From Haliotis rufescens (lineage: Eukaryota), in assembly GCF_023055435.1 (NCBI RefSeq), contig NW_025963779.1, positions 85,064,001 through 85,128,000 on the forward strand: a DNA stretch of 64,000 bases, read 5' to 3'. Below, piece by piece: positions 9,490 to 37,100 of the stretch. Made by a program: the position numbers and the translations under genes. Every line of letters starts with the position of its first letter. Positions within the stretch are counted from its first letter, which is position 1. The notes below the pieces were generated by a model. The model saw nothing but the letters and a program-made list of their open reading frames with translations. It was not told the origin of the DNA and did not search any database.

Positions 9490-12400
9490 ATGGGTGAAAG
9501 CAACGTACTGGTTGCCTGTACAGGTAGCGTAGCATCTATCAAGATACCAAAACTGATAGAACACTTAACAAATTCACATACGAAGGTACGTGTTTTCTTT
9601 TTTTAATCATTTAAGGTCACATCTATTCATAACCTGCAACTTTTACAATGTGGACTATTTGCTATTTTATTGATATTATCATTAAATATATTTCATGAAT
9701 GTAAATCAAATCATACTCTAAGGTTTTATTAATAATATAAAAAAATATACTTGTATCCTTACTAGATTATGTGCATGATTATGTGTATGAATCCATTTTG
9801 ATAGCTATTTTTTTTCTGCAAAGCTATTGGATTTTGGTCTTTTTGATCTGGTTATATATGGATATTATTATTTTTTTAATATGAGCAAATTCAGATAATA
9901 ATTGTATTCTTTTTTTTAATACATCATATTTTGCAAACTTTGTGGTAATAGATCCACTTTTTGGAACTAAATAAGCCTACTAATGTTTTGTTCTACCCTA
10001 GATAGAAGTCAAGTTAGTGACGACACAGAATGCCACACATTTCTTCAACCCAGAGGAGTTGCCAGTTAAAGTTCACAAAGATGCTGAGGAATGGGAGGTA
10101 TACAAACCTAAAAATTACATAACATTTTGTAGCTGAATGGTGTTTGCAAGACTGTTTGTTATTTTTTTGCATAGGTGTATATCATGTTATATTTGTCACC
10201 AGGGTCATGAGCCATTTTTAAATTATATTATTCTTTCTTCAGAATCTTATGCTCCCATTTCTTTATAAGGAACTGTGTACCATATATAAGGGATTAATTA
10301 CCTAAAAATAACTCTCTTCTCTCAATCATAACTAGTAAATGATATTCAAAAGTTGACGAAATATTAACATCTGCAACGAGAAAATAGAAAATATTCTCTT
10401 TGAAAGTAAAACAATTCAAATGGTCGACTTTATTTTGGTCAAAGTACAATCTCATTGTAATCAGATCTTTGTTCTCACTACCACCAAACAAACTCATGCA
10501 GTATAGCTTGAGAAAGCTGGTGTCTGATTGGCTCCCGACTTCTTGTTAGTCATTTCATTGGTAGGTCAAAGTTCTCAAAAGGTCGTTATGTCATGACCTG
10601 TAACAGAATGTCCTCAGATTTTTGTTTAGCGGTAACAAGAACTAAATAAGAAATTTCTCGAATCATGAGGACATACATATATGATTCAAATCCAAATAAG
10701 ATTGACTGTTTCTTACATAACTATTCTTAAAACAAGTATCTAATAATAATACTCGGTTTGATATTAGCAGAGTTTCAAATTTCTTTTACTATATCAACTG
10801 TCTTCTATTGTTTCATGTTCCAGAGTTGGAAAAAAATAGGGGACCCAGTGCTTCACATTGAGCTGAGGAGATGGGCAGATTTAATGGTCATAGCACCTCT
10901 GGATGCCAACACCATGGCGAAGATTACAAATGGCATCTGTGACAACTTGTTGGTAAGTTGATTTTTTGCTTATTATCAGTGATTAAAGTAGTGCCTGCCA
11001 GACAGTTCGAGACGGTCTGTTTTGCTGATGGACGGTCAGTTTTGAAAAGTTGCACACTTGATTGTCAGGTTATTATTGTATTTCGTAAATTACCTAAATT
11101 ATAATTTAATGGAAGAGGTAAATTAACTGTAAATGTTAAACATATTATTTATGAATAAAATTTCAAAAAGTTAAATTTACTAAGTTGATAATCCACCAGG
11201 TTGTTGTTGTTTTTCTAAAGACTAACATTAAACAGTACTATTCTTATGTGTACCCTATTCTTTCCTTTTACACTTGTCTTGAAAATTCTGGGCTGGCAAC
11301 ATTTTATCTGGTCTGGTGACTTTGCAAAGTTGCCAGCCCAGTTGTCTGACTGAAATTTTAGGGTATTTTGAACACTTATTATATAAGAACAATTGCAATA
11401 CAAAGAAATAGAAAATGTACTCCATGAAAGTGTACCATTCCCAAATGTTAACCCCCAGGAATATAATGACATAGTTCAAACTTTACAAAAATTTTAACGC
11501 CCTATGTCACATACCGGTACTCACTCAATAAGAGTTGTCTTGCATTTCAGAATAATGTCATCTGTTACAGTCAGTAGGTAGCAAAGTAAAGATTTCTTAT
11601 ATGTACAATTAATCACTGAGGAAATAATAATGTAGGGACTTCGGGTTAGAGTAGGGCCACAGAAACCTTTATCCTTGTCTTGAGAAGCGACTTAATGGAT
11701 CTGGAGGTCGGATTCTCAGACTTGGTTGATTGCAAGTCATCGGACTTAAAGACAAATACATTGCTTATAATACCAGTCACTGGTTTGTCTGGTCCAGACT
11801 CAGTTATCCACAAGCCACCGTATTGTATCTGGTATACTGCTGAGTCCATTAATATACAAGCAAACAATATAAAAAAAATAATTAAAAAATGATGAAAACA
11901 CATCAGTATTATATATAGTGTTTAATTAACCTTTCTCATGTGGTATGATGTTGGTAATGAATGAATGTGTGTGTAACAAACAAGGTCAGGTTATATATGT
12001 TCATGATTAAATTGTTAACAAATATATAGAGGTTATCACGCGAGTGTGTTTGGGGATGGTAAATATCCTGCATTAGGAATAAACATTGTATTTAGCGAGC
12101 CTTGGCGAGCTAAATACATAGTGTTTATTCCTAATACAGGATATTTACCATCCCCAAACACACAAGCGTGATAACCTCTTTATCCTATAATGTCATGCTT
12201 TAATTCTGTGCTTTAAAATCCCTATCCCTCTCTCACAAACATTACCGAAACATTGCGAGTTTTCCTGGAATGCGCGCATTAATATTTATTACGTCACAGG
12301 GTAAGTGATGTGTCAGTCGGACAGTGACAGTAGCCAATATAGTTCCAACTGAAATCTGTTTCTTATACAGTGGCGAAGCAACATATACGCAAAACAACAG

Positions 12401-15244
12401 TTGTTTTTAATTGCCTTTCGCGGCAATCCATCAGTCTGTCCGCTAGAGTAACTGCCCTTTGTCAAAGGGAAGCTACTCTAACCCTAGTCTATGCAACGTC
12501 ACGGGCACGGTCAGACGTTGACAGTCGGTCTGTCCTGACATAATGTTAAGAAGTGTAGTCAGATGTACACACAGCGACAAAACCAAACAAGGTAACAATT
12601 CAAACATATTTCGGCCAAATCCAACTATTTTAATTTGTGGAGAAGGTTTCAAGTTGCAGAGGTCAACAAGCACAGATATTGCTACTGATCCCGCTTGGCT
12701 AGGCCTCGCGCCCTCGCAAAATTGTTTCGAAATTTATACCTCCAAAGTAGCCAAAACTTATAAAATGCCTTAGCTACGTCACAGTTAGACACTGATTTTC
12801 AGTATATTAGACTGTTCTTTTGATAATGATAGCAATTATCCCTGTTGTTGATCCAGATTCCCGATGGTTAATTTTAACTCGATCGCCGAATGACGAGGAC
12901 GGCGCCATGTTTGTTTATAAACAGTGAAAGTAGTCCTACTTGACCTTTGATATTTGCATCTCTATCCGCATATGACCCCAACAGATATCGTTTTTATCCG
13001 TTGGCTTTATCCTGCCGATAAAACACATTATTATAGTATCTGCTACATTTGTAGTATTGGTGGATTCAAGATCAGTGTTGTTTCTATTTGTGGTGACATG
13101 ACAAAGATGTCTTTGTTTAATAACTATGTTTAATCACTGTAATTGTTGCTGGACACAAGAGCTGGGCTGGTACCTTGTGCTTGTTCTCAGCTGCATGCTA
13201 GTGAGAGTTATCTCCCCTATATTATCTTTGGCTGACCCAAATTAAGGATGGGGCCCATTTAGGGTTTAGCTAAACCACACTATTTACACTTTGAGTCACA
13301 CAAAAATAAACACTTGTATTATAATGATGGTGGTATTTCTATGTTTAGACATGCATTGTCCGAGCGTGGGACATGAAGCGCCCTCTGCTGTTTGCTCCTG
13401 CAATGAATACACACATGTGGGAGCACCCGCTCACGGCTCAACACCTGACGACACTGAAGGGCCTGGGCTACCAGGAGATCCCCTGCATCAGGAAGACACT
13501 GGCATGTGGAGACACAGGTTCTCTTCAGTTTATTATATGCTTTGAAACCAAACAATTAAATTTTTGGGGAGGTGGAATGCGGGACACAATATATGCTCGG
13601 TTACTGCTTGGACGAATGTTCAAGACATTATTTATTTTCTCAGAAAAAAAGCAGCCACACCATTGGACCACAACAAATGCTTTTTCAGGTCATCCAATAA
13701 AAAAAATTAAAAAAATTAACCAATCCAATATTTTCTGGAACAAGTATATGTATTTGGTCCCAAACCATGATAATTAGTATTTAAAGGGCAGGAAGAGTGA
13801 AAAGAATTATTGCAATTTTGCTTATATCAATTTTCCTACATTCATTAAGTCAATTTCCTAGAGAGAATAATTTGTAATATTTCTATTAAGTATTTAAATG
13901 CCTGTGTGAAAGTGCTGAAATCTCATGCTCTGTAATCAACTTCCAAACAAACCCATCTGAGGCCATGGCCTCAAGATACCAGCGCAATAGTGACAACTTT
14001 TTTCATTGGCAATGGTTTTCACGTTTATCTATCTTGTGATTCCTAGCCGTGATACATATACTGTTTCCACTATTTCTGTTAATCTAACATAATAACAACA
14101 TTGCATACATTGTTGAATGTGTGACATGACCTTTGATCTTCACATTGTAAATAATTAACTAACAGTTAACAATCAGTAACTAACGTTTTATTACAAACAT
14201 TCTGTTTTGGTAAGAAAACACTATCTGCCCTTGGCCCTATTCCACACAATCAATGCATGTCAGGCATGAATCCCCTGAGTAAACAACTGAAGGCATAGTC
14301 AGTCTTGTTACTAAGGTGAATTAAGTTGTCAACAGTAATCAAATGTATGAGCAAACAGAAAAATGACATTATGTATTCATAAAATCTGAGGCAGAAGCAG
14401 GCAGACTTGGGGTGGGCCCAATCGTCATGATTGTTGAAATTGGGAAGTGTCTAACAGTTGGAACCCGTTTTAACCCCAGTAAGGGGAATCCCCTCAGTGG
14501 CAGAATTGTTTGTTTGGGTAACAATTTCACCTGTCGTGTTTTATCATCTGTTTTACGCTATTTCCCTTTTTCATATATTATTTTGATGAAGCATTTGTGA
14601 TTAGGTATGCCGCAATGTATTTAGATCTGCAAAGTTGCTGTGCTGACTTTACTTGCCCTCTGAAGTTGATCACTCATTTACAACATGAGATAGAGTGTTA
14701 ACATGGACAGGTGGTTGTAAAGCACTTTTAATCCAGATCAGTTGGTTGGTTTGTTGTATAACGTCACACTCAGGGATATTCTTGCTATATGACATCCGTC
14801 TGTAAATAATCAAGTCTGGACCAGGCAATCCAGTGATTGACATCATGAGCATCGATCCGCGCAATTGGGATCGATGACATGCATCAACCAAGTCAGCGAG
14901 CCTGACCACCCGATCCCGTTAGTCCCCTTTTACGACAAGCATGGGTTGATGAAGACCTATTCTACCCTGGATCTTCACGGGTCTAATCCAGATTAGTATA
15001 CCATGTGGATAGATTAGCTGTAAAGTAGGTAAATACTGGCCAATAAGTGGAAAGTGTCAACCAAAATGTGTGCAGCACACTCCTTAGTGAAAATGTAAGG
15101 TAGTCTTCAGACTGGATTTAAGCTGGTGTACAGTACGCGTGTGTTTCAGGGTATGGGGCAATGGCCGAGGTGGAAACGATTGCAGCCCAGGTGATGGCTG
15201 CTCTACCCTCTCAGCAGCATCCCACATCAAGTCAACAATCGTAA
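9490..15244 (+). CDS. PPCDC: Phosphopantothenoylcysteine decarboxylase (CoA biosynthesis, HFCD flavoprotein), 194 aa
   Basis: Exons 9490-9585, 10002-10097, 10824-10952, 13349-13517, 15150-15244 (585 nt, GT-AG, in phase). Motifs NVLVACTGSVASIK, EEWESWKKIGDPVLHIELRRWAD, APLDANTMAK, DNLLTCIVRAWD, PAMNTHMW, LACGDTGYGAMAE. AATAAA at 15645. Confidence 0.96.
12028..13025. mobile_element. Non-autonomous DNA element with a long terminal hairpin (family B); right boundary approximate
   Basis: About 150-bp palindrome at 12028-12179 followed by tttatcc, with a CpG-richer body; same layout as family A. Confidence 0.6.
14743..14983 (-). mobile_element. Non-autonomous non-LTR retroelement (GACCCGTGAAG-headed family), full length
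   Basis: 14-bp target duplication taatccagatYagt (14729-14742 and 14984-14997) and a simple-repeat tail. Other copies at about 16045-16262, 28530-28790, 48543-48793, 51361-51500, 61667-61935, plus fragments. Confidence 0.85.
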
Positions 15245-16044: not shown

Positions 16045-16262
16045 TTGTTTGTTTGTTGTTGTTGTTGTTGTTGTTGTTTAACGCCGCACTCAGCAATATT
16101 CCAGCTATATGATGGCGGTCTGTAAGTAAACAAGTCTAGCCCACATAGTCCAGTGATTGACATCATGAGCATCCATCCAAGCAATTGGGATACGATAATA
16201 TGCATCAACCAAGTCAGCGAGCCTGACCACCCAATCCCGTTTGTTGCCTCTTACGACAAGCA
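16045..16262 (-). mobile_element. 5'-truncated copy of the GACCCGTGAAG retroelement family
   Basis: Same body and gcggcgttaaac plus (AAC)n tail as 61667-61935. Confidence 0.85.
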
Positions 16263-17769
16263 TAGTGATGAGATACATATACCTGGTATACATTGACCTA
16301 TTAATCAGGGCTATGACATCTCCCGATTAACAATGGTTTCCGTTTACTAAATAAAGGGCATAGAGCACTAGAAAAGGATTGAACAGTTTTATACATCTGT
16401 ATATCATAAACAACAATGGCAAAATGCAAGGCTTGCTAGACACAGGCAATACATTCCTTTAGGAGGATCAAACATGTCAGCCTCCATGTTGTCCCCTTTC
16501 AAATAAACAGATCTAATATTGTTTATATTACATTTTATTTCAGTTTCCCATGCAAATTTACATATATATTACTTTAATTTGCTGAAATAACTGTATGTTT
16601 GTGGGTTTTATGAAAGATTCCTGGAGCATGAAGTTCTCTCATGTGTAAATGAAGCAGGCAGCTACCCTGTAGCAGATGTTCACAGGAAATGAAAAACAGA
16701 ACTGAGTAATACAGGTATTGATCAGGTTCAGAGTGAGTGAGTGAATATTGCTCAACACATCAGCAGTCTTGCAGAAATTGGGGGCCGAGCTGGCGAAATT
16801 AATTAGACCCGAGGACAGTCATATGGAATAACTACACTCACAAGCGTGATAATGCAATTACTTGTTGAAAAAAAAAATTCATTTTCGAATATAAATGTAA
16901 ATTTATGTGTTGATGATCATGACCTGTTTGGACGTTTTAATTTTTGATAAATATCTGCCCGAATATTTAATAGACCAGTGGTGAGGGGAATAGTTTTTGC
17001 ATTATGGTCTGTTTATTACACTGTTTTAGAAATTTGATTTATAATTTGATTTATAATTTGATAATCACATGACAAAGTGCCATTAAAGTGTGCAAGAGTT
17101 ATTTGAACATACCACTCTATTACACGAATCCGATGATCTGATGAAAATTCAGAAATTGTCTGCCTTTTTACCACAAACGTCTCTCTTTCTCTCTGGAAAA
17201 AGGCCCACAATCACCATTCAGTCAGAACAACTTCAGTGCAAGATGTAAGCAGAGAAGAATTCGCTTTCATCCAGGGTCAATTAAGTTATCAATAACTGAT
17301 CCTTTACATAAGTAGAATAATATATAGGTCAATCTTAGGGTCACCACATTCAGAAATCCTGGACCAAGTTAATTAACTCCACACTCGTGACTTGTCTACA
17401 ACATCAAACAAATCCATTCAGAGAGTTCAGTCTTCAAAATTCAAATAAAAATTTCAGTGAGGACAATATCAGGTTTTCACATAGTTCAGTCCATATGTTG
17501 TTGATATTATTTTATATTAAATCTGTGTGAAATCTTTTGCTCTGTTGTACCCGATTTGATAGATTTCTGTTCAGAACAAATGTTGATATTACGTTGTGGG
17601 GTTAAGTAGACTCGGTGGCATGGTACCATGAGGGAATAATTACCAGCAGGCGAAAGCTCAAGTTGGAAATAAAGGCGACAAAACCCTTTCAATATCCATT
17701 AAGAACTACCTTCCGAAAGCAGAGTTGATTGTACGACTCCGACTATGTCATGAGTATGTGTTTATCAAT

Positions 17770-18225
17770 CATTATAGCTAAAATGGATAGAATTATCATT
17801 AAACCGCCCGCACGTTATCAGAAATGAGCGGGCCACTGTAACTTGATAATGCCCTCATATTACTTGACGACGGGCCATTATCACGCCCGTTGTTAGGTGA
17901 CGTCATAGGGTTGAGAAAATGACGTCACGCATTATAGTGACGTCATCTGGTTTGTTTTATGACGTTTCCATATTTGTAAAATGTGGTCAGTGACATTCGT
18001 GTTGATTGCAGTAAATGTTTCAAAACCGATATTGTTGTTTCTTTTTATTTGATAACAAATTCCATCCATTTTAGCTATAATAACGGTAACGCTCTTTTTC
18101 AGGGCATTATCATTTGCAGAAGCCCTCGGTCTTTTCAACTGCCCTCCTTCGTCGGGCAGTTAATGAAAAACCTCGGGCTTCTGCAAATGATAATGCCCTG
18201 AAAAAGAGCGTTACCCTTATATTAT
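17770..18225. mobile_element. Non-autonomous DNA element with a long terminal hairpin (family C)
   Basis: Palindrome at 18085-18215; inverted repeat ttatagctaaaatggat (near 17772) and atccattttagctataa (near 18064). Confidence 0.7.
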
Positions 18226-18687: not shown

Positions 18688-19467
18688 TTATTTATCATCC
18701 CAAACTGGCTCCCATAGGAGATATCACTCGGGTGAGATCTACATTGTAGATATCGCTGTAATGAAATTGCATCACAATGCTTTGCAGACCATTGTGACGT
18801 CATTGGTTACCATGCCGTCACAATCAAGTGACATCACTAATGGCTCTGCTACTGAAGCTTTTAGCAGTTCTTTTTACACTTGGCACTGCCTATAACTGTT
18901 TACAAACTGAACAATCTCATGAAAATCAGACCTCAATTCTCGCTACCGCTAAACAAAGATCTGATGACATCCCATCAGGGGTCACGTCAGAACGACCTTT
19001 CATCCAGCCAATCAGAGCATCGCTTACCAGATTATGAAAGTGACTATCATTATGTGATTTCTAATCATGCAACTCGAAACCTTTAACTCCGAACGATAGT
19101 TACATCTGAATCCATACAATCTAGACCATCTATTAGCCATTCCAGGATGTTCTTTTGTTCAGGTTTCAAATTTGTAATCGAGAACTTGTCAAAATATGTT
19201 TCGAAGCGTAGTCGTAGTTCGCGCAAGGTGGGTCTGACGTGACTCGTAATGGGATGTCCTCAGATCTTTGTTTAGCTGTAGCGAGAACTAGGATCTGATT
19301 TTCACGAGATTGCAAACTGAAAAAAGTTGGAAGAATGATGTTGGATGATAAATCAAATCACACCCTCACGTCTTTTAATATAAAAAAATATCAACACGAG
19401 TTGATAAAAGTGGAAAAACTCTGAGGCTTGGCTTGATATAAAAAGACACTCGGGTGAGATTCTCTGT
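18688..19467 (-). mobile_element. Second copy of hairpin family A, interrupted by a MITE
   Basis: Reverse complement of 4047-4449, with an insertion at 18912-19312 and a partly deleted hairpin. Confidence 0.8.
18912..19312. mobile_element. MITE with long TIRs and a 9-bp TSD (Mutator/MULE-like)
   Basis: About 60-bp TIR starting CAATCTCATGAAAATCAGA; TSD caaactgaa at 18903-18911 and 19313-19321. Confidence 0.85.
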
Positions 19468-19710: not shown

Positions 19711-19828
19711 CATGTGTGTCATACTGATTTTGCGAAACGAGTGTCAGAATTCCTGTATTACCTTCTCTCTGGCTCGGGGAAAACAAGAATTCTGATACTC
19801 GTTTCGTAAAATCTGTATGACACACATG
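19711..19828. repeat. Long palindrome (hairpin family D terminus)
   Basis: catgtgtgtcatactgattttgcgaaacgagtgtcagaattc...gaattctgatactcgtttcgtaaaatctgtatgacacacatg. Confidence 0.7.
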
Positions 19829-20973
19829 CTGATATCTAAATATGTATGAGGCGGTCTCACTGGTCTCCTTTATTTCTACTTTTGGGTGGGTAAATCAGTG
19901 AAAAGGAATTGGCATTTTGATGATTAATGAACGATATCCGATCATCGATATTACCTGAAGCTTAAGTTCAACTTCATGGCCAAATTATATTGTTTTGAAT
20001 TTGCAAATCTGAGCAGAAATCCCGATTCATATGCATAAAGAAACAGATCAGCAAGAAGGGGATCACAAGTTGTGCCTATGCGGGTGCCTACTTCCTGTCT
20101 AAATGTCTTACCCCCGAAGTCTAGATATCTACATAGATGTTATCAATGATGAACTCCAACATTTCGCATATTGTTTTCTCAGTAAACTTCAGATGGTGTT
20201 TGCTTCCATTTTTGAAAAATTGACAAAGAAGAGTCTATCTAAGTATGAGTGTGCTCATTTAGTTGATGTTCTCGGATATTCTAAATCTGTTCTAATTTCA
20301 GTAAACACTGATCTTAGTTCTCGCTACGGCTAAACATTGTGCACCGGTGACCAGCGCTAAAATCTGATTTAATTAGATTGACTCTTCAGCAGATGTCAAT
20401 CACTGGACTGTCTGGTCCAGATTCGATTATTAACAGACTGCCGTCTTATAGCTGCAATATTGCTGAGAGCGGCGTTAAACAAACTACCAAAATAATTAGA
20501 TTGAATCTGTTCGGGAAGCAAGGGGGCCCAGTTGTCAAAGGCACCGCATTCATTTTCTGTGCAGAGTTGTGTCCCTTTGTCGTGCCGGAATACCATGATC
20601 AAGGGTTCGAGTCCCAGATTAGCCTAGGCTGGTTATGATTTGTTGCTTTGTAACTACTTGTCAAGAAAATATTCCCACATGTATGAGCGCGAGACTTCCT
20701 CTGATCTTCGTCTTCATATAGTCTGGTTGATTGGTGGGGATTCAAAACTGCAGGCTATGACCCCAGTGCCCACACGCGACAACAAAAAAACGTGGTGTAC
20801 CGGGTGCTTACAATGTGAAATCTGGCTGGCTGTGTCTCCCCCGTTTGCGTTTATCGTTGCTTCTATAACACCACTGGCTTGCCTGGACCAGGCCTGGTTG
20901 TGTTCAGGCCGCTGGAGTAAAACTGACCACGGTGAGACGGTCATTCACTTGCCTGTTGCCGTAAAAAAGTGTT

Positions 20974-21045
20974 TGACGTCACAATACTCATAATGATGTG
21001 ACGTCATTGTGTCGTGTATTGTCATGCTTCACTTCTGTGACGTCA
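20974..21045. promoter_or_regulatory. Cluster of three perfect CRE/ATF palindromes (TGACGTCA)
   Basis: TGACGTCA at 20974, 20999 and 21038, 94-165 bp upstream of the ATG at 21139. Confidence 0.6.
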
Positions 21046-21138: not shown

Positions 21139-22890
21139 ATGGACGGCACCATCCCAGACACCGATATTGAGGAGGACTGTGAAGAGGTCATGTCTGAGGC
21201 ATTCGAGGAATTCTGCCAGAGATGTGATCAGCTTTATAAACGAGCTGCTCATTGTCCTGCGCCACCACAGAAAGAGTTCAAAAAGGACTCCCGGTTCTGG
21301 CTCCACAAGAACAGGAACAGACGATCACAGAAGAAATACGGTGACGATGGCGAGCTCACGTATGACCAAGTCTTCTCAGTCATTGGCAAGAATGGAAGGC
21401 GCTTCAAGAAAGATTCCCGTGTGTGGCTTCACAAGTCAACCGTCAGGGCGTACACGATAAGACAGTTACAGAAGAACTGCAACTGCAACGGCGTTCTCAG
21501 TACCCACGATGAAAACAGGGTGACCGTCACAACCAAGATCACCACCACTAGCGGGAACCCTCGATGGCGAAAGTGTCATACAATAGCCCCTGATCAGCTC
21601 TATGAAAAGTTGAGAGCTGCTGGTTGCGGCCGGAAAAGGAAGAGAGGAGAACTTGTGTCGTCTGCCCCGTCCTCCCCTGCAAAGAAAAACGAATCAAGTC
21701 TCGGTTTGCTGTCACGCAGCCTCGACGGGGCTGTGGGGCTTACAAGATGCGTTGACAGGATTGATGACGATCCACTTGGCCTCCCCCGCATCGCCTCTAC
21801 TGAGAGCGTTTATGGCAGCTCACCAGAGGAGAACCAGGTGGAGAAGTCACCCTGGTCAGACTTTGAAGTCATGTCTGACAACAGGTCCTCCAACAACAAG
21901 CTTAACGATGACCACTCGCCAGCCTCATCAGATGGAAGGTGACATTTCTGTAATTTGTAAACGCTTTCTTTTCAAATACAAAACAACTATATCCAACACG
22001 AGTCTCTGTTAATGAGAGTTTATGCCTGGTGCGTTTTCAGTCCACCATCTGTGAAACATCAAGAAATGTACGACCACCAGAGCACACAATAGATAATTTG
22101 AGGTTTGGATAAAATAATTTTCTAAATCACAGCACATTACCCAGTGCTTGACAGTTTGTTACGGCCTATGTTATTTACTGTTTGTAATTAATTTGTACGG
22201 CTATTGATATCTAAAGCATATAACAGTCCATAGACCAGTAGCTGTCTTCTGGTTTTCTTTGCTAGGCCTAATATAGCGAAGTAGTTCCTTGGGCTGGCGG
22301 ATTTGCCACGCGCCAGGACCTGTACGGAGATTGTGTCTTTGTTTGTAATTTGTGTTGCTATTTCTATTTTAAAGTGTGATCTTTGGTTTGTCAGCACTAT
22401 ACGTATCTGTGATCTCTTTCATTTTTGGCAGTACTCTCACGTTACGTTGACGTGCTGTGATATAACTAAAAAACATTTCTAAGCCGTCCAAAACCATGTA
22501 AATATTTTATTTCTATAGCAGGGGCCCATGATGTATGTGTTAAGGACTTCAATAAAGAATTAGATTCTACATGACGCAAAAAAATACAACCAAACGAAAA
22601 CACTGTAAAGATTTCATATTTCTTTATTTTTCAGCATCAACTTGATCAATGAGAAAATTCATGACTCCTCACCGAGATCTGACACGTCACGTGCGGATCT
22701 GATGAACGACCAGGTGTCATCATTATGTTTCATAGTAGAAGAGTCCACCAGGTACGACCCCCCGATCACACCACCCGGGAGTCCCTGGCATGAGGACTGT
22801 GGGGAGATCGATGCTGAAGTTGAAGCTGCCTTCTCGGAAGACAGCAGCAGCTCAGACTTATACTGGCGAAACTTTAACACCAACAACTAG
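21139..22890 (+). CDS. Uncharacterised two-exon protein, about 351 aa
   Basis: Exon 1 at 21139-21938 ends AG|gtgaca. Exon 2 at 22635-22890 follows ttctttatttttcag. The phase-2 junction rebuilds AGC and joins both ORFs in frame. Both exons are GC-richer than their flanks. Duplicated FKKDSRxWLHK motif, RKRKR, TPPGSP. Confidence 0.65.
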
Positions 22891-24119
22891 GCGATGTGTT
22901 ATCTAATCGATGTATTAGAAAGTGAATAACAGCGTTTGTCTTAAAACACACATATACCAGTAGCATATCTATTAAGGTAAAATCGATAATAATTACAGCG
23001 ATTTTTTTAAACAAACACGTCAAGTATATTGTAACATGTTTTTATTTCAAAATATATTATGAAAGTAATAATTATTTTGCGACAGTTTTCTGGTTTTTAT
23101 CATAATGAATTGTTTTGTTTGATTTCATTGTTGTCATTTGAAATCAATAGTTTAGTTTATTTATTTTTGTTCCATGTGGCTAAATGTTCAAAAAGGTGAA
23201 ACGTTTCTAAACTATACCAGAACTGTGCAGTAATGTAACAGGTTTGTCCAATGCCATATATAATATAGACTCACAATCATATCTCGTTTTGTGCATGTTT
23301 GTATTTCAACATTTTATGATTTACGAAATGGGTATTACTTATAAATACGTGGGTCTTACTCGCCCACAATAGGCAGTTCGGCACCTGGAGCTAGCATATG
23401 GGAAAAGCATATTTCACGGAGCATCGCTGTTATAGTTAATATCCCCTTGCTATTGTGACACAATGTTTCTAAAGAAAACGTTTCCTGCACACAAAGACAA
23501 GAGGAATGAGCAAGCGGGAGCATACCAGTGTGGCTTTCTATTCCTATCTGCGATATTGTATATTGTATTAATTCAAATAGCGCTTTATTGATGTAATATC
23601 TCAATCAGTGTATCTCGCATACATTAACAACACTGTATTTACATAAAATATGTCATCATGTTGAATATGTTCTCCTTTTGTCTTGTTTCGCTGGCGTGCG
23701 GTGATGCGCATACAGAATCTAGCATGTGGGGGGTCATATGTCCGTGCAAAACTCCTGAATGTTAGGAGCTGGTGTCAGAATTTGAATGGATGAATATTTT
23801 ATGTCTGTTTCAAATAACTTGTCCAGGTTGCAAACATGAATGTATGGGTAGGAGATTATTCGCCTGCGCAGGGGTTCACCATACCCATACCACACCTTCA
23901 TTGGTCAGTTCACTAACAGTTTCTGCAGCCTCTCCCAGTGATTCAACATTTGTACAAGAAGCGGAAATATATCCTCATTCACTCACTCAGTTGGGAAGCC
24001 CCATCAGCAAACACCTCAGTGGGAATTGTATCACTATATGCCAACTGTGTACACAAGACGCCTTGGCTTGTCAACAAATGTCCCATAGTAGAAGGAAATC
24101 AAACATCCCACATTATTGT

Positions 24120-28100: not shown

Positions 28101-31100
28101 TGTCCACAGTGTTTGTTTATGAAATATCCACCATGTACACAGTGTTTGTTTATGAAATATCCACCATGTTGACAGTGTTTGTTTCTGGAATATCCACCAT
28201 ATTGACAGTGTTTATCAAAGATTCACCTTGTTGATAGTGTTTATTTATCAAATTTTGTTTTGCCTAATCTCCTAACTGACTTGACTAAAGGACCATGTAG
28301 GATAAGGGCCCTTAATGGCCCACAGTAGCTGCAGAACTTAATAATTAAGCAAGACCTTTACAAATTGTTAGGAATATTTCAACAATTGAATGTTTGGTTC
28401 TTACAAGACAAAACGCATAGGTAAAATGTAGTGACAAAATTATCTACCAGACAATCTAAGTATCCAACAGAATTTTGACAAGTCTATATGAATTTTAAAT
28501 AGCCTTGGAATAATGTAATAGCATATTTATTTTGTTTGTTGTTAAACCCTGCACTCAGCAATTTTCCAGCTATATGGCAGTGGTCTGTAAATAATCGAGT
28601 CTGGACTAGACAATCCAGTGATTGACATAATGAGCATCAATCCACACAATTGGGATATGATGACATGCATCAACCAAGTCAGCAAGCCTTATCACCCGAT
28701 CCCGTTGGTCGCCTCTCATGACATGCACAGTCACCTTTTACAGCAAGCATGGGTTGCTGAAGACCTATTCTACCCCTGATCTTCAAGGGTGGTGATAGCA
28801 TAGACATCGCACATTAAGAACACTAGTGATAGCATAGACATCTCACACTAAGAACACTAGTGACAGTACAGACATCACACACTAAGAACACTAGTGATAG
28901 TATAGACATCGCACACTAAGAACACTAGTGATAGCATAGACTTCGCACACTAAGAACACTAGTGATAGCATAGACATCTCACACTAAGAACACTAGTGAT
29001 AGCATAGACATCGCACACTAAGAACACTAGTGACAGCATACACATCGCACACTAAGAACACTAGTGATAGCATAGACATCGCACACTGAGAACACTAGCG
29101 ATAGTATAGACATCGCACACTAAGACCACTAGTGACAGCTTAGACATCGCACACTAAGAACACTAGTGATAGCATAGACATCGCACACTAAGAACACTAG
29201 TGACAGCATAGACATCGCACACTAAGAACACTAGTGACAGCATAGACATCGCACACTAAGAACACTAGTGATAGCATAGACATCGCACACTAAGAACACT
29301 AGTGCTAGCAAAGACATCGCACACTAAGACCACTAGTGATAGCATAGACATCACACACTAAGAACACTAGTGATATAATGAACCATTTCCAACAAGTACA
29401 ATCCATGTCAATTTTTTAAGACAATGACAATCTAAAAGTACAGCCGGTAACAGCTTGGCCTCATTAAAATGGTAATAATGTCCCCACCTGTTGAATATGA
29501 TAAGTTTACTCTGTGGGAAACTAATTCATTATGAAACACAGTATTTTGCATATTGCCCAGTCATCTTTATTCATGCATAGCTCAGTGCAGCTGTCGAATA
29601 CTAATCCCATACAATTCAACAACAATACACATAAATTGATAATCTTTGTTCTTTTGTGTGGCATTAGGTGAAGTGAAATGGGGTTTTATGTTGCCTTCAT
29701 GATTATTGCACTTAAATGACATATACATGATAGATGTATGTGGGAGTGTGTGCCTTCTTGTGATAGTCTGGACTAATGCTGGTATATAGCGTTAGCCCAC
29801 TGACACACCATGAACACCCCTCTCAGACACAGTATACCGACTCCGAAACAACTATTGCTTGTTTTAGCCCCTAATGCTAAAATCACCTTTAACACGACCA
29901 TCCACTCACCAGGCAGACACCCTATGTGAAGGATAAAGCACTCCTCCTAGGTTATGGTCAAGGAGTGAGTGAGTGAGTGAGTTGGGTTTAACGCCGCTTT
30001 TAACAGTGTTCCAGTTATATGACGGCGTGTCAGCTTAATGTGGGAGGAAAGCCCGAAGTGATGCAGGTCTCAGACGTTTACCACTTCGGGTATGGTGCTG
30101 ACAAACCTAGAAACATAATCGGGGTGAACCGGGATTCTGGCGTGCCCAAGGGACGCAACTCTGCACAGCAAATCGTGGCGCCTTAGACGACTGGGCCACC
30201 CATGCCCCCTATGGTCAAGGAAGTAAGACCGAGGTAAGAGGGTATTTGCTCCTCGGTTTTACATTGCCGATAAAATGACTGGCGAGGTCTTACTTCCTCG
30301 ACCATAACTGAGGTGGAGTGCTTTATCTCACTTATAAACCGTCCAAATGTTAGAAATAACAGAAAAATACGAGAAAACATCAAGATATCTAATAGTGAAA
30401 CAATACAGTGTGTCGCGGTATAAAAGGAATGCAATCAAAGCGTGTGAGATAGTGTAACCGGGTTTGTGTTGGCGAATACAAGGTCCAACACAGGCTACGG
30501 GTGTGAGTCTTTATTGCCTTATTAGTAGATAACAATGACACCCTGTAATGTACAAACAATAAGATTATAAAAACAGTAGTACACAGGTTTCATACACACA
30601 TATATTAATACAATACAAAGCAACCTTTCATTTAATATAAACATAGTCTATATTCATTACATCAACATGAACTTAATAATCAATGATATATAAAATCATT
30701 ACCTTACCCTGAAGTAAACAAACGATTGATCAAGGGCGATAACTCGATCCCGACATTACTGATAAGATTACAATATATATATGGTCCACGGTTCCAACAT
30801 ACAATGAACATTACAAATTCAATTACCACTTTGTTGAAACTACTATATTAATTCATTACCTGATCATACATTTGGTATGATACACTATTTACAAAATATA
30901 CTTCATGACACAACAAACATGTAAATTATGCGTACCCTGTGGGTGACACTGGGGTGTTTGTCCTCTCTAGGCAGCCGCCTGGCGTGGTAGCTTTGTAGCT
31001 GTCAGCACGCTCCTAATTACAGAATCAACTATGAATAAATGTAACATACAGAATACAATTTAGGAAATATAACTAACTACTAACTACCATACAATGATTG

Positions 31101-34100
31101 ACATTGCATACAAATTCAGTATTTACACAATGATAAAAATCAACGCATTCACTCAAACATTCACACACAGGAAGAAGAAGGATGACAAGCATTTATAGTG
31201 TTTACTTAGCCTTATTTAATTATTAACTTAGTAATATGGTGACACAATCACCATACCAAAGATAAGCATGTTAATAATACTGAAATTACATTCCACATAA
31301 CTTAGATAACATAAGTTATATTATTATACAAATACATAGATATTAGCTAGCAATTTTATAGATTACTAACCTTAATAATCGAATTATTTATCCCAGATCT
31401 GTCCGAGTCCAAATTGTTGACTGACTTCTGAATTGGTGTATTGTCAAGTGCAAGATGGATGAAAAGTGCACAGTTTGAACAAGCCAATGAAAACAAGGCT
31501 TGGGTTAGAACAAAGAGGAGAAACAATGACACAAACATAGACCAACCCAACCACCCTCTACATTATAAGTAAACTAATCCAGAAGCCCATAATATATATT
31601 GAATTAAGAACCTACTTTCCTAACAACTTAAAATAACATACAAACCTAAAGGACCTCAAATAGATAAAACATATATACAACAAAACTGTATGTTAATACT
31701 TGTGTCTGCCACATACTTCCCCCCACAGGAAAATGATGTCTCATCATTTGACCTTGCCGCTGACAAGATCGAGAAGAGTATCAGCCACTCGGTGTCGCTG
31801 ATCCCGGAATCTATCATCAGCTAGCAGAGAATTGAGATAGTTGGCTCTGGCAAGCCATTCTGGATTTCCAGGATCACTTATGGCAGAAAGAACATATTCT
31901 CCACTTCTCATCCAGTTGGGCTGTGACCTGGTTCTGGTTGACCGCCGTGGCTGAGAAGCATCTTCTGGCTGCAAATTGGGTTGTTCTTCTCTGTCATCCT
32001 CACTACCTGTGGCCCCAGTCTCAGATCTGTCTTCATCTTGCTCGTTCTGGTGAACAGTATTATCAGTTGGCTCTTCTTCTTCCCTCCCTTCTTCAGTAGG
32101 AGTCTCATCTCCTTCTAAAGCTTCTTCTGACTCTCCTTCAGTTGGCCTTTCCACTGTGATCTCAGTAGGAACTGAAGGTTCTGAAGAACGGGTATAGCCA
32201 ATTGCTGATTCCTCATCAGACAGATCTTCACTTGTTTCGACAGCCGTGTTCTTCCTCGGCTTAGGCACAGGTATTGGTACTTGTCGTCGTCTGGGTTTAA
32301 TGGCTGGTGGCATTTTGACTGGCAAAGAACTAACTGGCAGCAAGAGGTTACGATGTAGCACTCTATTTCTTCCCTCTCCATTCTCCTTTCCAACCTCAAA
32401 GACAGGTATCGATGGATTTGGATGGCGCAGCACAACATATACATCTTCCTCCCATCTGTTAGCTAATTTATGTCTTCCATCAAAGGCCACAATCTTTACA
32501 AGGACTCGATCTCCTGGTTCCAACATTGCAGCTCTGGCCCTCTGGTCATAGTAAGTCTTCTGCTTGGCCTGAGATTTCTGAGATGCTGTTGAAGCTATGT
32601 CATAGGCTTGCCTCAAACGGTCCTTCAAGGATTTGGTGTACTCTGTTATGGACTTGCTTTCCTGAATTTCCATGTCCAATCCAAAAATAAGATCAACTGG
32701 AAGTCTTGGATGTCTTCCAAACATCAAGAAGAAGGGAGCTACAGATGTTGTCTCATGGCGGGTACAGTTGTAGGCGTGGACGAGTGGACCTACATGCGCC
32801 TTCCAGTTCTTCTTTTCATTTGGTTCCAAAGTACCAAGCATGTTACAAAGAGTACGGTTGAACCGTTCTGTCATCCCATTGCCCATTGGATGGTATGGCG
32901 TTGTCCGGGACTTTTCTATTTTCAGAAGCTGGCACAATTCCTGCATCACCTTCCCTGTAAAATTGGCTCCTTGATCAGAATGGATTCTTTTTGGAAGACC
33001 ATAATGGATGACAAAATTGCTGAAAAAGGCTTCTGCTGTTGTTTTTGCTGACATGTTCTTGGTTGGGTAGGCTTGGGCGTAGCGAGTGAAGTGATCTGTC
33101 ACAACCAAGACATGTTCTATTCCTCCTTTAGAGGGTTCTAGGGAAAGGAAGTCCATGCATACAAGCTCTAGTGGCTCGGAAGTCTTGATGCTGATTAAGG
33201 GAGCTTTGATGTTGGTTGGAGTTTTCCTCCTTAGACAACACTCACAATGTTTTAGGTGGGTCTCCACGTCACGTGTTATCCCTGGCCAGTAGAATCTGTC
33301 CTGTAGAAGTGATACAGTCCTGTCTCTTCCAGGGTGTCCAACATTGTCATGGAGGCTCCTCATTGCCGCAGTTCTTAATCTAGAGGGTAGAACTAGCTGT
33401 TCCCGGTCTACGCCATTAACACTGGCGACTCTGTATAGAACTCCTCGCTTGAGTTTGAACTGACTGTAGTTCTTCATCAATGATGTCATTTCAGGATCCT
33501 TCAGGTAGTTCATCCGGTCTGGTCTTGCTCCATTCCTCAAGTGTGTGATAATTTCTACTAGGGCTTGATCTTTAGCCTGTGATCGTCTCCAGTCTCTGGC
33601 ATTCTGTTCACATCTGTCCTCAGTTAAGTCAAGGTCTTCATCTTCAACCACATCTGCAGAGAGGCACAAACTTTCCACAAGATTCGTCACATGGGTTGAA
33701 TGACAAATAGCTGTGACATAATCTTTGGCAATCTCATCCATGTCATCATGGTCTTCCTTGACTGGTAACCTAGACAGAGCATCGGCATCACTGTTGGATT
33801 TCCCAGGGCGGTACTTAATGCTGAAATTATAGCTGGAGAGAGCAGCAAGCCATCTATGACCTGTGGCGTCTAATCGAGCACTAGTCAGCACATAGGTCAA
33901 TGGATTGTTGTCGGTAATAACCACAAATTCATGACCCCACAAGTAGTCATGAAACTTCTCTGAGATAGACCATTTCAGACACAAAAACTCCAGCTTGTGT
34001 GCTGAATAATTTCTCTCAGAACGACTGAGTCCTCTACTTGCATAAGCTATTACTCGTGGCTGTCCGTCCTGCACCTGGTAGAGTACTGCACCTAATCCAT

Positions 34101-37100
34101 GACCACTGGCATCTGTATGTAGTTCAAAGGGCTTGGTACAGTCAGCATATCCCAGAATTGGTGGCATGGAGAGTCGCTGCTTTAGTTCGTTGAAAGCACT
34201 CTGTTGGGCTTCCCCCCACATCCAGTTAACGTCCTTGGGTTGCTTTGACTTCTTTGAAGCTGACTTTGGCATTAACTCTGAAAGTGGTTTGGCAATTTTG
34301 GCAAAATCTTTGATGAATTTTCTGTAATAGCCAGCGAATCCTAGAAATTTCCTGACTTGTTCCGGGCTGGAAGGAGTTGGCCAATGTTGCACTTTGTCAA
34401 TTTTCTCAGGGTCAGCTTCAATTCCATGTTCGGAAACAATGTACCCCACATACCGAACTTTTCTTTTGAAGAACTTGCACTTCTTGGTGGCGAGTTTGAG
34501 CCCACATTCTTGTATCCGCTGGAAAACTTGTTTGAGTCGTTCAATATGTTCTTCATACGTGTTAGAGAATATGATCAAATCATCGAGATAGATCAAACAG
34601 ATGTTTAGGTGTAGACCTTCAAGGCATCGTTCCATGAGACGCTGGTAAGTGGCTGGGGCGTTGGTAAGTCCAAATGGCATACGATTGTACTCGTAGAATC
34701 CTAGAGGTCCTACAGTGAAGGCAGTTCTTTCTTTATGAGCTTCCTCGATCTCCACCTGGTGATAACCACTTTTCATGTCAAGGACTGAGAAGAACTTGTT
34801 TCCACCCAAACAATCCAGTAAGTCTTCAATCCTCGGCAGAGCGTAGGAATCTTTAATGGTTCGGTCATTAAGCTGGCGAAAATCTGCACACATCCTGAGA
34901 CGCCCATCTTTCCTTCTGGCAAGTACAATATTGGATGCCCAAGGACTGTGTGACTTCCTGATTACTTCAGCTGAGAGTAGTGTTTGAAGATGGTTCCGAA
35001 CTTCATCATACATTGCAGGTGGTATTCGGCGATGTCTCTGTTTGAAGGGAACTTCATCAACAATATCTATCCGATGATGCACCATGTTGCTACATCCAAT
35101 GTCATCATCATGTTTGGAGAAGATGTCTGTGAACTTCATGATGATGTCAAGTCCCATCTGTATCTCTTCCCTTGTCAGGTCAGTGTCATCAACATCGACT
35201 TGGTTGATGATGTCATCTGGGTCACCTTGTTCTCCAGGGGTAGCTCCGGAATAGATACAGGCTGAATCTCACACAACAGAGCTCTAGGAGGGACAACTAC
35301 TGTTCTAGTTGTAATGTTAGAGATGTGCACGTCCACTGGGTTCCGACTGTCATAGTTGTAAGATATAAGCGTAGGTGCTATGTCCAAATCCCGTGGTAAT
35401 GAAGCAAAGCTGGTAGGTTGGAGTAAAGCACATATGACTGGTGAATTGAACCCCTTGGTTACTTGTCCTTTGATAACCATGTTGGTGTTGGGTGGAATGA
35501 TGAGGTTCTTGTTCTCTGTGCTGCGAACAAATCCAAGGCAGTGTCCTCGTCGCTCCAGTTCTTTATCCCGTAATGCTAAAGTCCTGTAGGCTAAGTACCA
35601 AGGAGTGTGGAGATTGGCCTTCTGAAGAAAACGTGCTCCGTGTTGTAACTTACACTCATTCAAGAAATGCTGCAACACATTAGTTCCAAGTAAAGCGGGT
35701 ACCTTGGCATTGTATCTTGTTTCAGGAACAATTAACATGAGGCATGAATCCGAAGTTTTGCTTATTCCTCCACCAATGATATTGAGTCTTACACTCACAT
35801 ATCCAAGATATGGAAGCTGTTCCCCTCCGGCACACTCAATATCCAAGATATCACTGATTGGTTCCAAGGGCAAAGACTGTAAATTATTCTTGTAAAATGT
35901 CTCAGATATGATAGAGACTGTAGCACCAGTGTCCAACAGAGCACGAACAGGAAATCCTTCAATGCTGATCTCAACTTCTGTGGCATCTCCTACTAGTCCG
36001 TCTGGAATCTCTTTATACTTGGGGCGCCCAATAAAGCCTAATGGTTGCCCCCTCCCATAGGCCTGGCCAAGTTTAAAGGGCATCGAAGATGGTCCAGTCT
36101 CACTCTACACCCAACTGCAATATGTCCAGGGTATCCACAGCGGTAACAATAGATGGGTTCCTGTGGTTCTGGCGGCAATCCATACCCATCAACTTGAGGG
36201 GGTTGTGGTGGTGGAATATGCTGGGGCATATATGGCGCTTGTGGCCTTGGAGGCGCAGGCTGACTGTAAGAATGCTGTTGCTGAGGCATAACAGATGGCA
36301 TCTGGGACTGGAACGAGCTTGTCGGATGTGATGGTCCATTCCGTTTCCCATAATGTTTGCTGTTCCTCCTCCAGGAAGTCTGAGGAGTACCTTGAGAGGC
36401 TGGTGATGGTTGATGAGGCTGTTGAAAAAATACTTGAGCTGAATGTTGACGTTGCTCCTTTAGGTCAGCTAGCTCTGTCTGGATATCCCTCATCATGGCT
36501 TTAAGATCCATCACTTCTTCCTTAGTAGCAACAGCAGAAGAAGAGTCAGAGGTAGAGGCCATCTTTATGGTTGCTGTCTTCTTTCCTGTGCTGTGACTTT
36601 GATCCCGCTTCATGTCAAACTCAACTTCCCTTAAACATAGTCGAAGCTCATCAAAGTTGAAGATGTTATCATACTTGTGGGCAGCAAGGCTCTTCAGTTC
36701 AGGCTTAAGGCCATCCCACATCTTGCTTCGGAGCATTTCATCCTGTTCCTCAAAGTTCATCTGACGTTGGGAGGCTATCTGGTACATGAGGTTCTCCAGC
36801 CGGCAACCCCATGCTGTAACATCTTCCTTGTCTCCTTGGAAAGTACCATAAAACTGTGACATCAGGGTCTCCTTCCTTCTCAAAGTTCCAAAAGCAGAAT
36901 GGATCTTGAACAAGAGGTCCTCTACTGTGGCAGTGTGTCCAAGCTTCATGGCAACCAGTGCGGCTTCTCCCTTCAAAGATTTTCTGATAACCTGGAGTAT
37001 AACATCTAGAGAATGAGTCTTTGACTGTAGAAGACAGTCAACTTCATATTTCCACAAGTCATATGGAGTGTCCTTTCCAGTCTCTCCGCTAAAGAATGGT

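What the first reader, a model, noticed from the sequence alone, without database searches (positions are those of the whole stretch)
21139..22890. Orphan two-exon gene with a duplicated FKKDSRxWLHK motif, NLS and phosphodegron-like motif
Seen: the separately listed 267-aa and 82-aa ORFs join in frame through a GT-AG phase-2 intron (21939-22634) into about 351 aa. The protein has an acidic N-terminus, a basic region with FKKDSRFWLHK and FKKDSRVWLHK about 40 aa apart, scattered Cys/His, RKRKR, an SPAKK CDK-type site, a Ser/Asp-rich tail and ITPPGSP. Known: TPPxS is the Fbw7 phosphodegron pattern of Myc and cyclin E. Inference: a short-lived nuclear regulator that I cannot assign to any family. 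It may be lineage-specific or carried by a virus or transposon, since it sits in a repeat-dense interval between conserved genes.
Basis: partly seen in the sequence, partly recalled or inferred. Interest (0 to 1): 0.7.

Follow-up and report, generated by a model that had tools for sequence, protein, structure and literature searches.

The report
Snail-clam-worm protein with frozen 11-residue motif
This is a real, spliced abalone gene from an undescribed protein family of snails, clams and a marine worm, in which only an 11-amino-acid motif is kept throughout; that motif likely docks onto a conserved, still unknown partner protein in the nucleus.

Summary
The 696-nt GT-AG intron is spliced out in RNA-type contigs of 6 of the 7 such runs laid. 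The 351-aa product is identical to the uncharacterised RefSeq protein XP_046348325.1 of Haliotis rufescens.

It is not an orphan, and nothing points to a virus or transposon. It is single-copy and has relatives in gastropods, bivalves and the annelid Owenia. Across 53 proteins only [FY]KKD[SAG]RxWLHK is kept (82 copies; two per protein in nearly all gastropods, one in bivalves). The best Pfam match among 51 members was E 0.005, and no fold is predicted.

Best reading: a disordered nuclear adaptor whose motif likely binds a conserved partner. Lineages add other motifs: a phosphodegron-like TPxGSP (abalone, caenogastropods, mussels) and a PP1-type RVxF (bivalves). Full CRE palindromes sit just upstream in abalone and two bivalve-type loci, against 5 of 95 control genes. 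That hints at CREB induction, but my positive controls failed.

No paper on the family turned up, and this scan had not noted it on other DNA.

The parts
20974..21045 (.). Three full CRE-type palindromes TGACGTCA (20974-81, 20999-21006, 21038-45), 165 to 101 bases upstream of the ATG; possible CREB/ATF sites (inferred)
   Evidence: no listed difference inside the three 8-mers in runs that cover them (only 3 substitutions nearby, so not significant); baseline
21139..21938 (+). Coding exon 1 (aa 1-266 plus 2 bases, phase 2)
21193..21249 (+). N-terminal helix, aa 19-37; the only confidently predicted structure; aligns with Haliotis and Gigantopelta-like relatives only
   Evidence: helix 5-23 of the 106-aa model, pLDDT about 90 in block 11-20
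21277..21309 (+). Motif copy 1, FKKDSRFWLHK (aa 47-57)
21403..21435 (+). Motif copy 2, FKKDSRVWLHK (aa 89-99), preceded by a loosely kept hydrophobic-turn-GRxF stretch
21631..21687 (+). RKRKR (aa 165-169) and SPAKK (aa 179-183): NLS-like cluster next to a CDK-type site; S179 changes to T in three related organisms, which keeps the acceptor
21939..22634 (+). GT-AG intron, 696 nt
   Evidence: joint in 6 runs
22635..22890 (+). Coding exon 2 to the stop codon
22765..22788 (+). ITPPGSPW (aa 311-318), phosphodegron-like; counterpart ITPCGSPW in Mytilus and SPPGSP in caenogastropods
22891..23500 (+). 3' untranslated region (at least this long); holds one TTATTTATT at 23157, which is weak (11 in the window)
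   Evidence: (X1 contig 5)

Best explanation
This single-copy, spliced gene encodes a predicted disordered, likely nuclear adaptor protein whose two copies of an 11-residue motif, kept across snails, clams and an annelid, likely dock onto a conserved partner protein. Shown: gene structure, splicing, selection, family range, motif conservation, variable spacer. Inferred: the motif is a short linear docking site. With two copies on a flexible spacer it would grip a dimeric partner, or two partners. The partner is most likely a signalling enzyme (kinase, phosphatase or ubiquitin ligase) that the protein inhibits or retargets. The basic cluster would take it into the nucleus. Phosphorylation of T312/S316 would trigger its destruction. 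The upstream CRE sites would let cAMP/CREB signalling switch it on briefly. It would thus work like the small inducible feedback regulators of vertebrates without belonging to any of their families.
For: Motif: 82 copies in 53 proteins. L and K after the W, which the pattern did not force, are present in 82 of 82 and H in 81 of 82; 7 invariant columns in a 51-sequence alignment, all in the motif. The spacer between copies runs from 27 to 75 aa in 28 two-copy proteins, and 24 proteins have one copy, so the copies do not form a fixed repeat fold. With the motifs masked, the abalone protein aligns only with Haliotis and two Gigantopelta-like proteins among 52. AlphaFold2 with 51 sequences: pTM 0.24, motifs in coil, no packing between them; full length with 5 sequences: pLDDT 31. 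Basic clusters in 38 of 52. TP/SP-x-GSP in 8 of 52. Same layout, a long first coding exon ending in a phase-2 intron, in abalone, L007 and L008. Full CRE at -88 (L007) and -125 (L008) against 5 of 95 abalone control genes.
Against: No partner was identified or tested. The invariance is partly ascertainment, since a profile built on the motif finds proteins that have it. AlphaFold failure with a shallow alignment does not prove disorder. Orthology across classes rests on the motif, exon layout and low copy number, not on a global alignment. CRE evidence is weak: triple-CRE clusters occur 2059 times in this genome, many in repeats. The Jun-like and C/EBP-like control loci (labels recalled) have no full CRE. 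L005 and L006 have none, though their starts are uncertain. Some RNA-type contigs run across the CREs. The Aplysia orthologue LOC101862445 is absent from the searched files of the 24-h sensitisation list (one file not searched). The degron-like motif is missing in 44 of 52 members. In the motif-bearing core alone pN/pS against X10 is 0.92 on 7 changes, which is uninformative.
Confidence: 0.55

Rival explanations
1. The family is a set of protein phosphatase 1 (PP1) targeting subunits: RVxF binds PP1 and the KKDxRxWLHK motif recruits the substrate or a third subunit, much as GADD34 does.
For: [KRQ]x(1-2)VxF in 18 of 22 single-motif (bivalve-type) proteins examined; [KR]xVxF in 16 of 52 against a shuffle mean of 3.1 (max 10). 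Lottia has RSISF. The top Atlas look-alike of the Mytilus protein is the fungal PP1 regulator Gip1 at 0.84, a lead only.
Against: The abalone protein and most gastropod members have no canonical RVxF. The broader RVxF pattern is not clearly enriched (22 of 52 against a mean of 11.4, max 22). No PP1-regulator Pfam match.
Confidence: 0.15
2. The motif is a tiny nucleic-acid- or nucleosome-binding element: a metal-free beta-hairpin/turn whose G-R-x-F-x3-S-x4-H spacing echoes a C2H2 finger or a WRKY/CG-1-type meander (resemblance recalled). The protein would be a chromatin-bound transcription cofactor.
For: The motif is basic with an invariant Trp and His. A weak beta bridge precedes copy 2 in the model. 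An acidic N-terminal helix could serve as an activation domain.
Against: No conserved Cys or second His. In most caenogastropods and heterobranchs copy 1 starts five residues after the first Met, with no hairpin. No such Pfam or PDB match. Invariant D, W and L suit a protein interface better (inference).
Confidence: 0.15
3. It is a highly diverged member of a known animal family whose single-motif relatives in insects or vertebrates were missed.
For: Single-motif bivalve members scored only E 1e-4 to about 1, so more diverged ones would fall below threshold; only 7991 candidates were scored. The Atlas gave FAM212/INKA at 0.77.
Against: Best Pfam hit over 51 members was E 0.005 and unrelated. 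The only PDB hit is a partial 14-residue match to a mitoribosomal protein mS69 that lacks WLHK.
Confidence: 0.12
4. The gene is carried by, or derived from, a virus or transposon.
For: It lies among repeats, and a Ty3/Gypsy-type element sits 9 kb downstream.
Against: One copy in 1.33 Gb; spliced and under selection; found across mollusc classes and in an annelid with a conserved exon layout. Viral scans: 2 of 19 matches passed, the one inspected (L002) lies outside any matching reading frame, and 0 of 10 passed with the full motif. No long inverted repeat was seen bracketing the gene among the 25 longest listed.
Confidence: 0.03

Closest known systems
RefSeq uncharacterised proteins: H. rufescens XP_046348325.1 (LOC124128866), Aplysia LOC101862445, Biomphalaria LOC106063282, Mytilus LOC143072691, Mercenaria LOC123565854, Owenia CAH1775277.1
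   Same: The window's product is identical to the first; the others share the motif.
   Different: All are unnamed and carry no Pfam domain in the listings; I found no text that groups them.
INKA1/2 (FAM212): disordered PAK4 inhibitors with a repeated Inka box (function recalled)
   Same: Disordered protein of similar size with a duplicated short conserved motif; Atlas feature score 0.77 with the Mytilus member.
   Different: No match to PF15342 in any of 51 members; the score is within what shuffled proteins get.
Inducible phosphatase adaptors GADD34/PPP1R15 (PP1) and IER2/IER5, SERTAD (PP2A-B55) (recalled)
   Same: Compact gene, mostly disordered protein, NLS, possible CRE control; RVxF in bivalve members.
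   Different: None of their Pfam families matched at E up to 1. The abalone protein lacks RVxF, and no helix-loop-helix is predicted over the motifs.
Fbw7 phosphodegron substrates such as Myc, Jun and cyclin E (pattern recalled)
   Same: ITPPGSP fits the TPPxS pattern with a priming SP; the element is shared with Mytilus and caenogastropods.
   Different: No DNA-binding or cyclin domain; the motif is absent from most family members; degradation untested.

Membership tests
Any Pfam-A family | Profile match at or above the curated cut-off | tested here: not met
   none for the abalone protein as a whole; best E 0.0046 among 51 members
C2H2 zinc finger / FLYWCH / CG-1 / WRKY-type domains | Conserved Cys/His metal ligands or a family profile match | tested here: not met
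   No conserved Cys and one His per motif; no such family
INKA/FAM212 | Inka box (PF15342) | tested here: not met
   Not among the 22 families matched at E up to 1; Atlas 0.77 is a lead only
INKA/FAM212 | Binds and inhibits a PAK kinase | not testable with these tools
   needs a binding or kinase assay
PP1 regulatory subunits | RVxF docking motif in a disordered region | tested here: inconclusive
   Not met in the abalone protein; met in 18 of 22 bivalve-type members by a loose pattern
PP1 regulatory subunits | Direct PP1 binding | not tested
   no complex prediction was run; no single-exon PP1 sequence was at hand
IER / SERTAD (PP2A-B55 adaptors) | IER or SERTA domain | tested here: not met
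   no such family; no PDB chain matched
Immediate-early (CREB target) genes | CRE near the start and a compact gene | tested here: inconclusive
   Present in abalone and 2 of 4 other loci; baseline 5 of 95; positive controls lacked a full CRE
Immediate-early (CREB target) genes | Rapid induction without new protein synthesis | not testable with these tools
   only contigs were laid; the 1-h Aplysia paper was not held
Fbw7 substrates | pT-P-P-x-pS degron sequence | tested here: met
   ITPPGSP at aa 311-317, kept in the four full-length Haliotis proteins
Fbw7 substrates | Phosphorylation-dependent ubiquitination and short half-life | not testable with these tools
   needs a chase experiment
Transposon- or virus-borne gene | Multiple dispersed copies, flanking terminal repeats, or viral relatives | tested here: not met

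The most novel reading that the evidence does not exclude
An ancient CREB-induced immediate-early gene of molluscs and annelids, missed so far because it has no domain, encodes a feedback regulator. Its KKDxRxWLHK motif defines a new docking site on a core signalling enzyme, and the Aplysia orthologue LOC101862445 acts in the cAMP/CREB memory cascade.
Probability: 0.15. Interest if true: 0.78.

Novelty: new variant of a known kind. Interest (0 to 1): 0.5.

Why it matters
An 11-residue stretch that stays nearly unchanged between snails, clams and an annelid, while the rest of the protein becomes unalignable, usually marks a binding site on a conserved partner (established reasoning on short linear motifs). 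The motif matched no Pfam family and no solved structure here. Finding the partner takes one peptide pull-down and could reveal a new docking surface on a well-known enzyme. If the CRE hint is right, the gene is also a new candidate CREB target in Aplysia and Lymnaea, the classic memory models, and a possible stress marker in farmed abalone and bivalves. If the hint is wrong, this is still a clean family definition for dozens of unnamed proteins.

Tried and rejected
Searches that found nothing or only chance:
- Pfam on the exons and on all members.
- PDB by sequence and by profile; only a partial mS69 match without WLHK, taken as chance.
- Atlas with the abalone region, no usable hit; with Mytilus, leads under 0.9.
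- Longer forms over 615 aa: 0 of 28 candidates scored (weak evidence).
- Paralogues in the own genome: 1 match of 16 candidates and 1 of 1.
- Viral contigs.

Structure: two AlphaFold2 jobs gave no fold, so I ran no fold search. I ran no complex prediction, because no partner was singled out.

Runs: no holder was on record as RNA ('no RNA holder listed'). X23 did not cover the exons.

Synteny: the PPCDC and POLR2M exons did not match L005-L008; these loci are short, so this says little.

Rows dropped: P0063 was excluded from the family (it lacks WLHK). In the CRE baseline 13 of 108 loci were skipped, and a few used loci were read in a wrong frame.

Rejected readings: a zinc-binding reading of the Cys/His; the AU-rich nonamer as support (11 in the window); the window-wide CRE excess as support (several copies lie in repeats).

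Literature: no paper holds LOC124128866 or six other locus ids. Motif words hit only papers with unrelated titles (16 of 17 listed). One search was swamped by one loose term: 12 of 36 were listed, none of them holding the other terms. One search gave one unrelated paper.

Full report
1. Observation. The window carries an open frame from ATG 21139 to a stop at 21940-42 and a second frame at 22609-22890. A GT donor at 21939 and an AG acceptor at 22633-34 join them in phase 2 into 351 aa. The joint is present in contigs of X1, X5 and X4 and X10, X12 and X13: 6 of 7 RNA-type runs laid, from five organism labels and five studies. The seventh, X23, did not cover the exons. The DNA-like run X15 reads from exon 1 into the intron with no joint. 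The tool marks 'RNA' as a guess for these runs, and contigs cannot show start, strand or level. The product is letter-for-letter RefSeq XP_046348325.1, LOC124128866, 'uncharacterized', of Haliotis rufescens.

2. Copy number, selection, neighbours. The own genome (1.33 Gb) gives one match with aa 38-174 (16 candidates scored) and one with the second motif at E up to 10. Against run X10, for which all 33 coding differences were listed, pN/pS is 0.45 (20.5 non-synonymous on 826 sites, 12.5 synonymous on 227; p=0.015). The core aa 19-118 alone has 7 changes and pN/pS 0.92, which is uninformative; none of them hits an invariant motif position. Against H. rubra and H. asinina, aa 19-118 are 89 and 86 of 100 identical, while aa 119-150 are 12 and 14 of 30. 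The two motif copies share 10 residues, 5 of them through different codons, so the repeat is kept as protein. The gene lies between a flavoprotein (PPCDC-type) exon on + and a GCOM2/POLR2M exon on -.

3. The family. The first search found only Haliotis (3 of 361 candidates). A word-free search of 1.84 billion representatives added Lottia, Nucella, Biomphalaria, Physella and two unnamed proteins. A profile of the two-motif region then gave 53 proteins at E up to 10 among 7991 scored. They include Pomacea, Littorina, Gigantopelta, Aplysia, Elysia, Lymnaea and land snails; the bivalves Mytilus, Potamilus, Sinanodonta, Mactra, Mercenaria, Ruditapes and Dreissena; and the annelid Owenia. One hit (P0063) lacks WLHK and was dropped. 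In the 53 proteins analysed (52 of those hits plus P0006) there are 82 motif copies with consensus [FY]KKD[SAG]R[VT]WLHK[SN][ST]. My pattern forced KKD.R.W, but not the following L (82 of 82), H (81) or K (82). Of 52 non-redundant proteins, 28 have two copies 27-75 aa apart and 24 have one; the named bivalves all have one. With the motifs masked, the abalone protein aligns only with Haliotis and two Gigantopelta-like proteins. The range is a lower bound, because single-motif members score near the threshold. No oyster, scallop, cephalopod, arthropod or deuterostome name appeared, which may be a limit of sensitivity.

4. Gene layout elsewhere. A metagenome scan returned four loci (4 of 5 pattern matches). 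L007 and L008 encode Dreissena-like proteins (45% and 43% identity). Like the abalone gene, each has a long first coding exon (971 and 968 nt) ending at a phase-2 donor, and a second exon is visible in L007. Each has a full TGACGTCA 88 and 125 bases upstream of its ATG, against three at -165, -140 and -101 in abalone; L005 and L006, whose starts are uncertain, have none. For a baseline I took abalone bZIP, forkhead, BTB and bHLH loci. Of 95 usable loci (108 fetched), 5 had a full CRE within 250 bases of the first in-frame ATG and none had three. Against the hint: the set is biased to developmental genes and imperfect; the Jun-like and C/EBP-like loci (labels recalled) had no full CRE; the palindrome is abundant, one per 13.6 kb; triples occur 2059 times, many in repeats; and contigs of X10 and X12 run across the sites. 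L007 and L008 are related to each other, so they are not two independent tests.

5. Structure and known families. No Pfam family matches the abalone protein, the motif units or any of 51 members convincingly. No PDB chain matches beyond a partial chance hit. AlphaFold2 gave pLDDT 31 for the full protein with 5 sequences. For aa 15-120 with 51 sequences it gave pTM 0.24, one confident N-terminal helix and both motifs in coil. The Atlas offered Gip1 (0.84) and FAM212/INKA (0.77) for the Mytilus member, both under the level that counts. Cysteines are not conserved, so a zinc-binding reading fails.

6. Secondary motifs. NLS-like basic clusters outside the motif occur in 38 of 52 proteins (shuffle mean 4.7, max 10). 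[ST]P[PC]GSP lies 24-40 aa from the C-terminus in 8 of 52 (three Haliotis, three caenogastropod-type, two Mytilus; none in 300 shuffles; pattern chosen after inspection). Bivalve-type members carry an RVxF-like site (18 of 22 by a loose pattern) that abalone lacks. SPAKK was seen only in Haliotis, with an S-to-T swap in three related organisms.

7. How it most likely works. A short invariant motif, repeated on a spacer of free length inside a protein that is otherwise unalignable and predicted to be unfolded, is the anatomy of a docking motif (established knowledge of short linear motifs; inference here). I commit to a nuclear adaptor or inhibitor that binds a conserved signalling enzyme through the motif, is cleared through the C-terminal phosphodegron, and may be switched on by CREB/ATF. 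My odds: docking-motif adaptor 0.55 overall; the CREB-induction step on its own about 0.3; the degron step about 0.5. Rivals: PP1 subunit 0.15, nucleic-acid-binding mini-module 0.15, diverged known family 0.12, mobile element or virus 0.03. The last fails on copy number, splicing, range and two viral scans.

8. Literature. Full-text searches found no paper with LOC124128866 or six orthologue ids; motif words hit papers with unrelated titles (listing only). Searches were seen as listings only. PMC6584072 (Helix immediate-early genes): abstract, passages and one supplement searched, no hit, but that file was not shown to use such ids. PMC5602346 (Aplysia, 24 h after training): supplements searched; they use LOC ids and lack LOC101862445; one file was not searched. 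A 24-h list does not test early induction. The supplements of PMC13064417 and the 1-h paper were not available and may bear on the CREB claim. The scan's own notes held nothing on this family.

9. Verdict. The gene is an annotated but unstudied member of a family I could not find described, defined by a new conserved motif. The general kind, a disordered regulator built from short motifs, is known. Novelty: new variant of a known kind. Interest 0.5.

Noticed in passing
window 31744-37369, - strand: Ty3/Gypsy-type LTR retrotransposon with long open gag-like (PNMA), protease and RT-RNase H-integrase frames.
   Followed up: partly
window 17898-17945; also 4262-4449 and 18688-18880: TGACGTCA-rich dispersed repeats. 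The triple at 17898 resembles many matches elsewhere in the genome. The palindrome occurs 98,268 times genome-wide against 35,019 for the reversed control, so mobile repeats may spread CRE-like sites in this genome.
   Followed up: partly
window 18080-18220, 19711-19828, 4052-4195, 12024-12183: Short near-perfect hairpins (arms 52-71 nt), MITE-like.
   Followed up: no
window 20392-20620, 14746-14982, 16062-16266, 28527-28790: A very high-copy interspersed repeat, heavily covered in RNA-type and DNA-like runs alike.
   Followed up: no
proteins P0051, P0055, P0058, P0059 (C-termini): Heteroconch bivalve members end in a VP[SK]LFVLA-type stretch resembling an Elongin BC box (label recalled), and share SSL[GA]DS[DE]A[DE]LxYSE. 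Neither is in abalone.
   Followed up: partly
proteins P0012, P0013, P0019, P0036, P0055: PL[DE]VS, close to the CtBP-binding PLDLS (label recalled), in pulmonate snails and Mercenaria; RTRSS[TE] in heterobranchs.
   Followed up: no
proteins P0028 and P0034 (Aplysia LOC101862445): Isoform X2 diverges immediately after the second WLHK, removing the conserved SS that follows.
   Followed up: no
G000:C1:48.67-48.82 Mb (L032, L035-L043): A tandem cluster of 10 forkhead-domain matches with near-identical domains.
   Followed up: no
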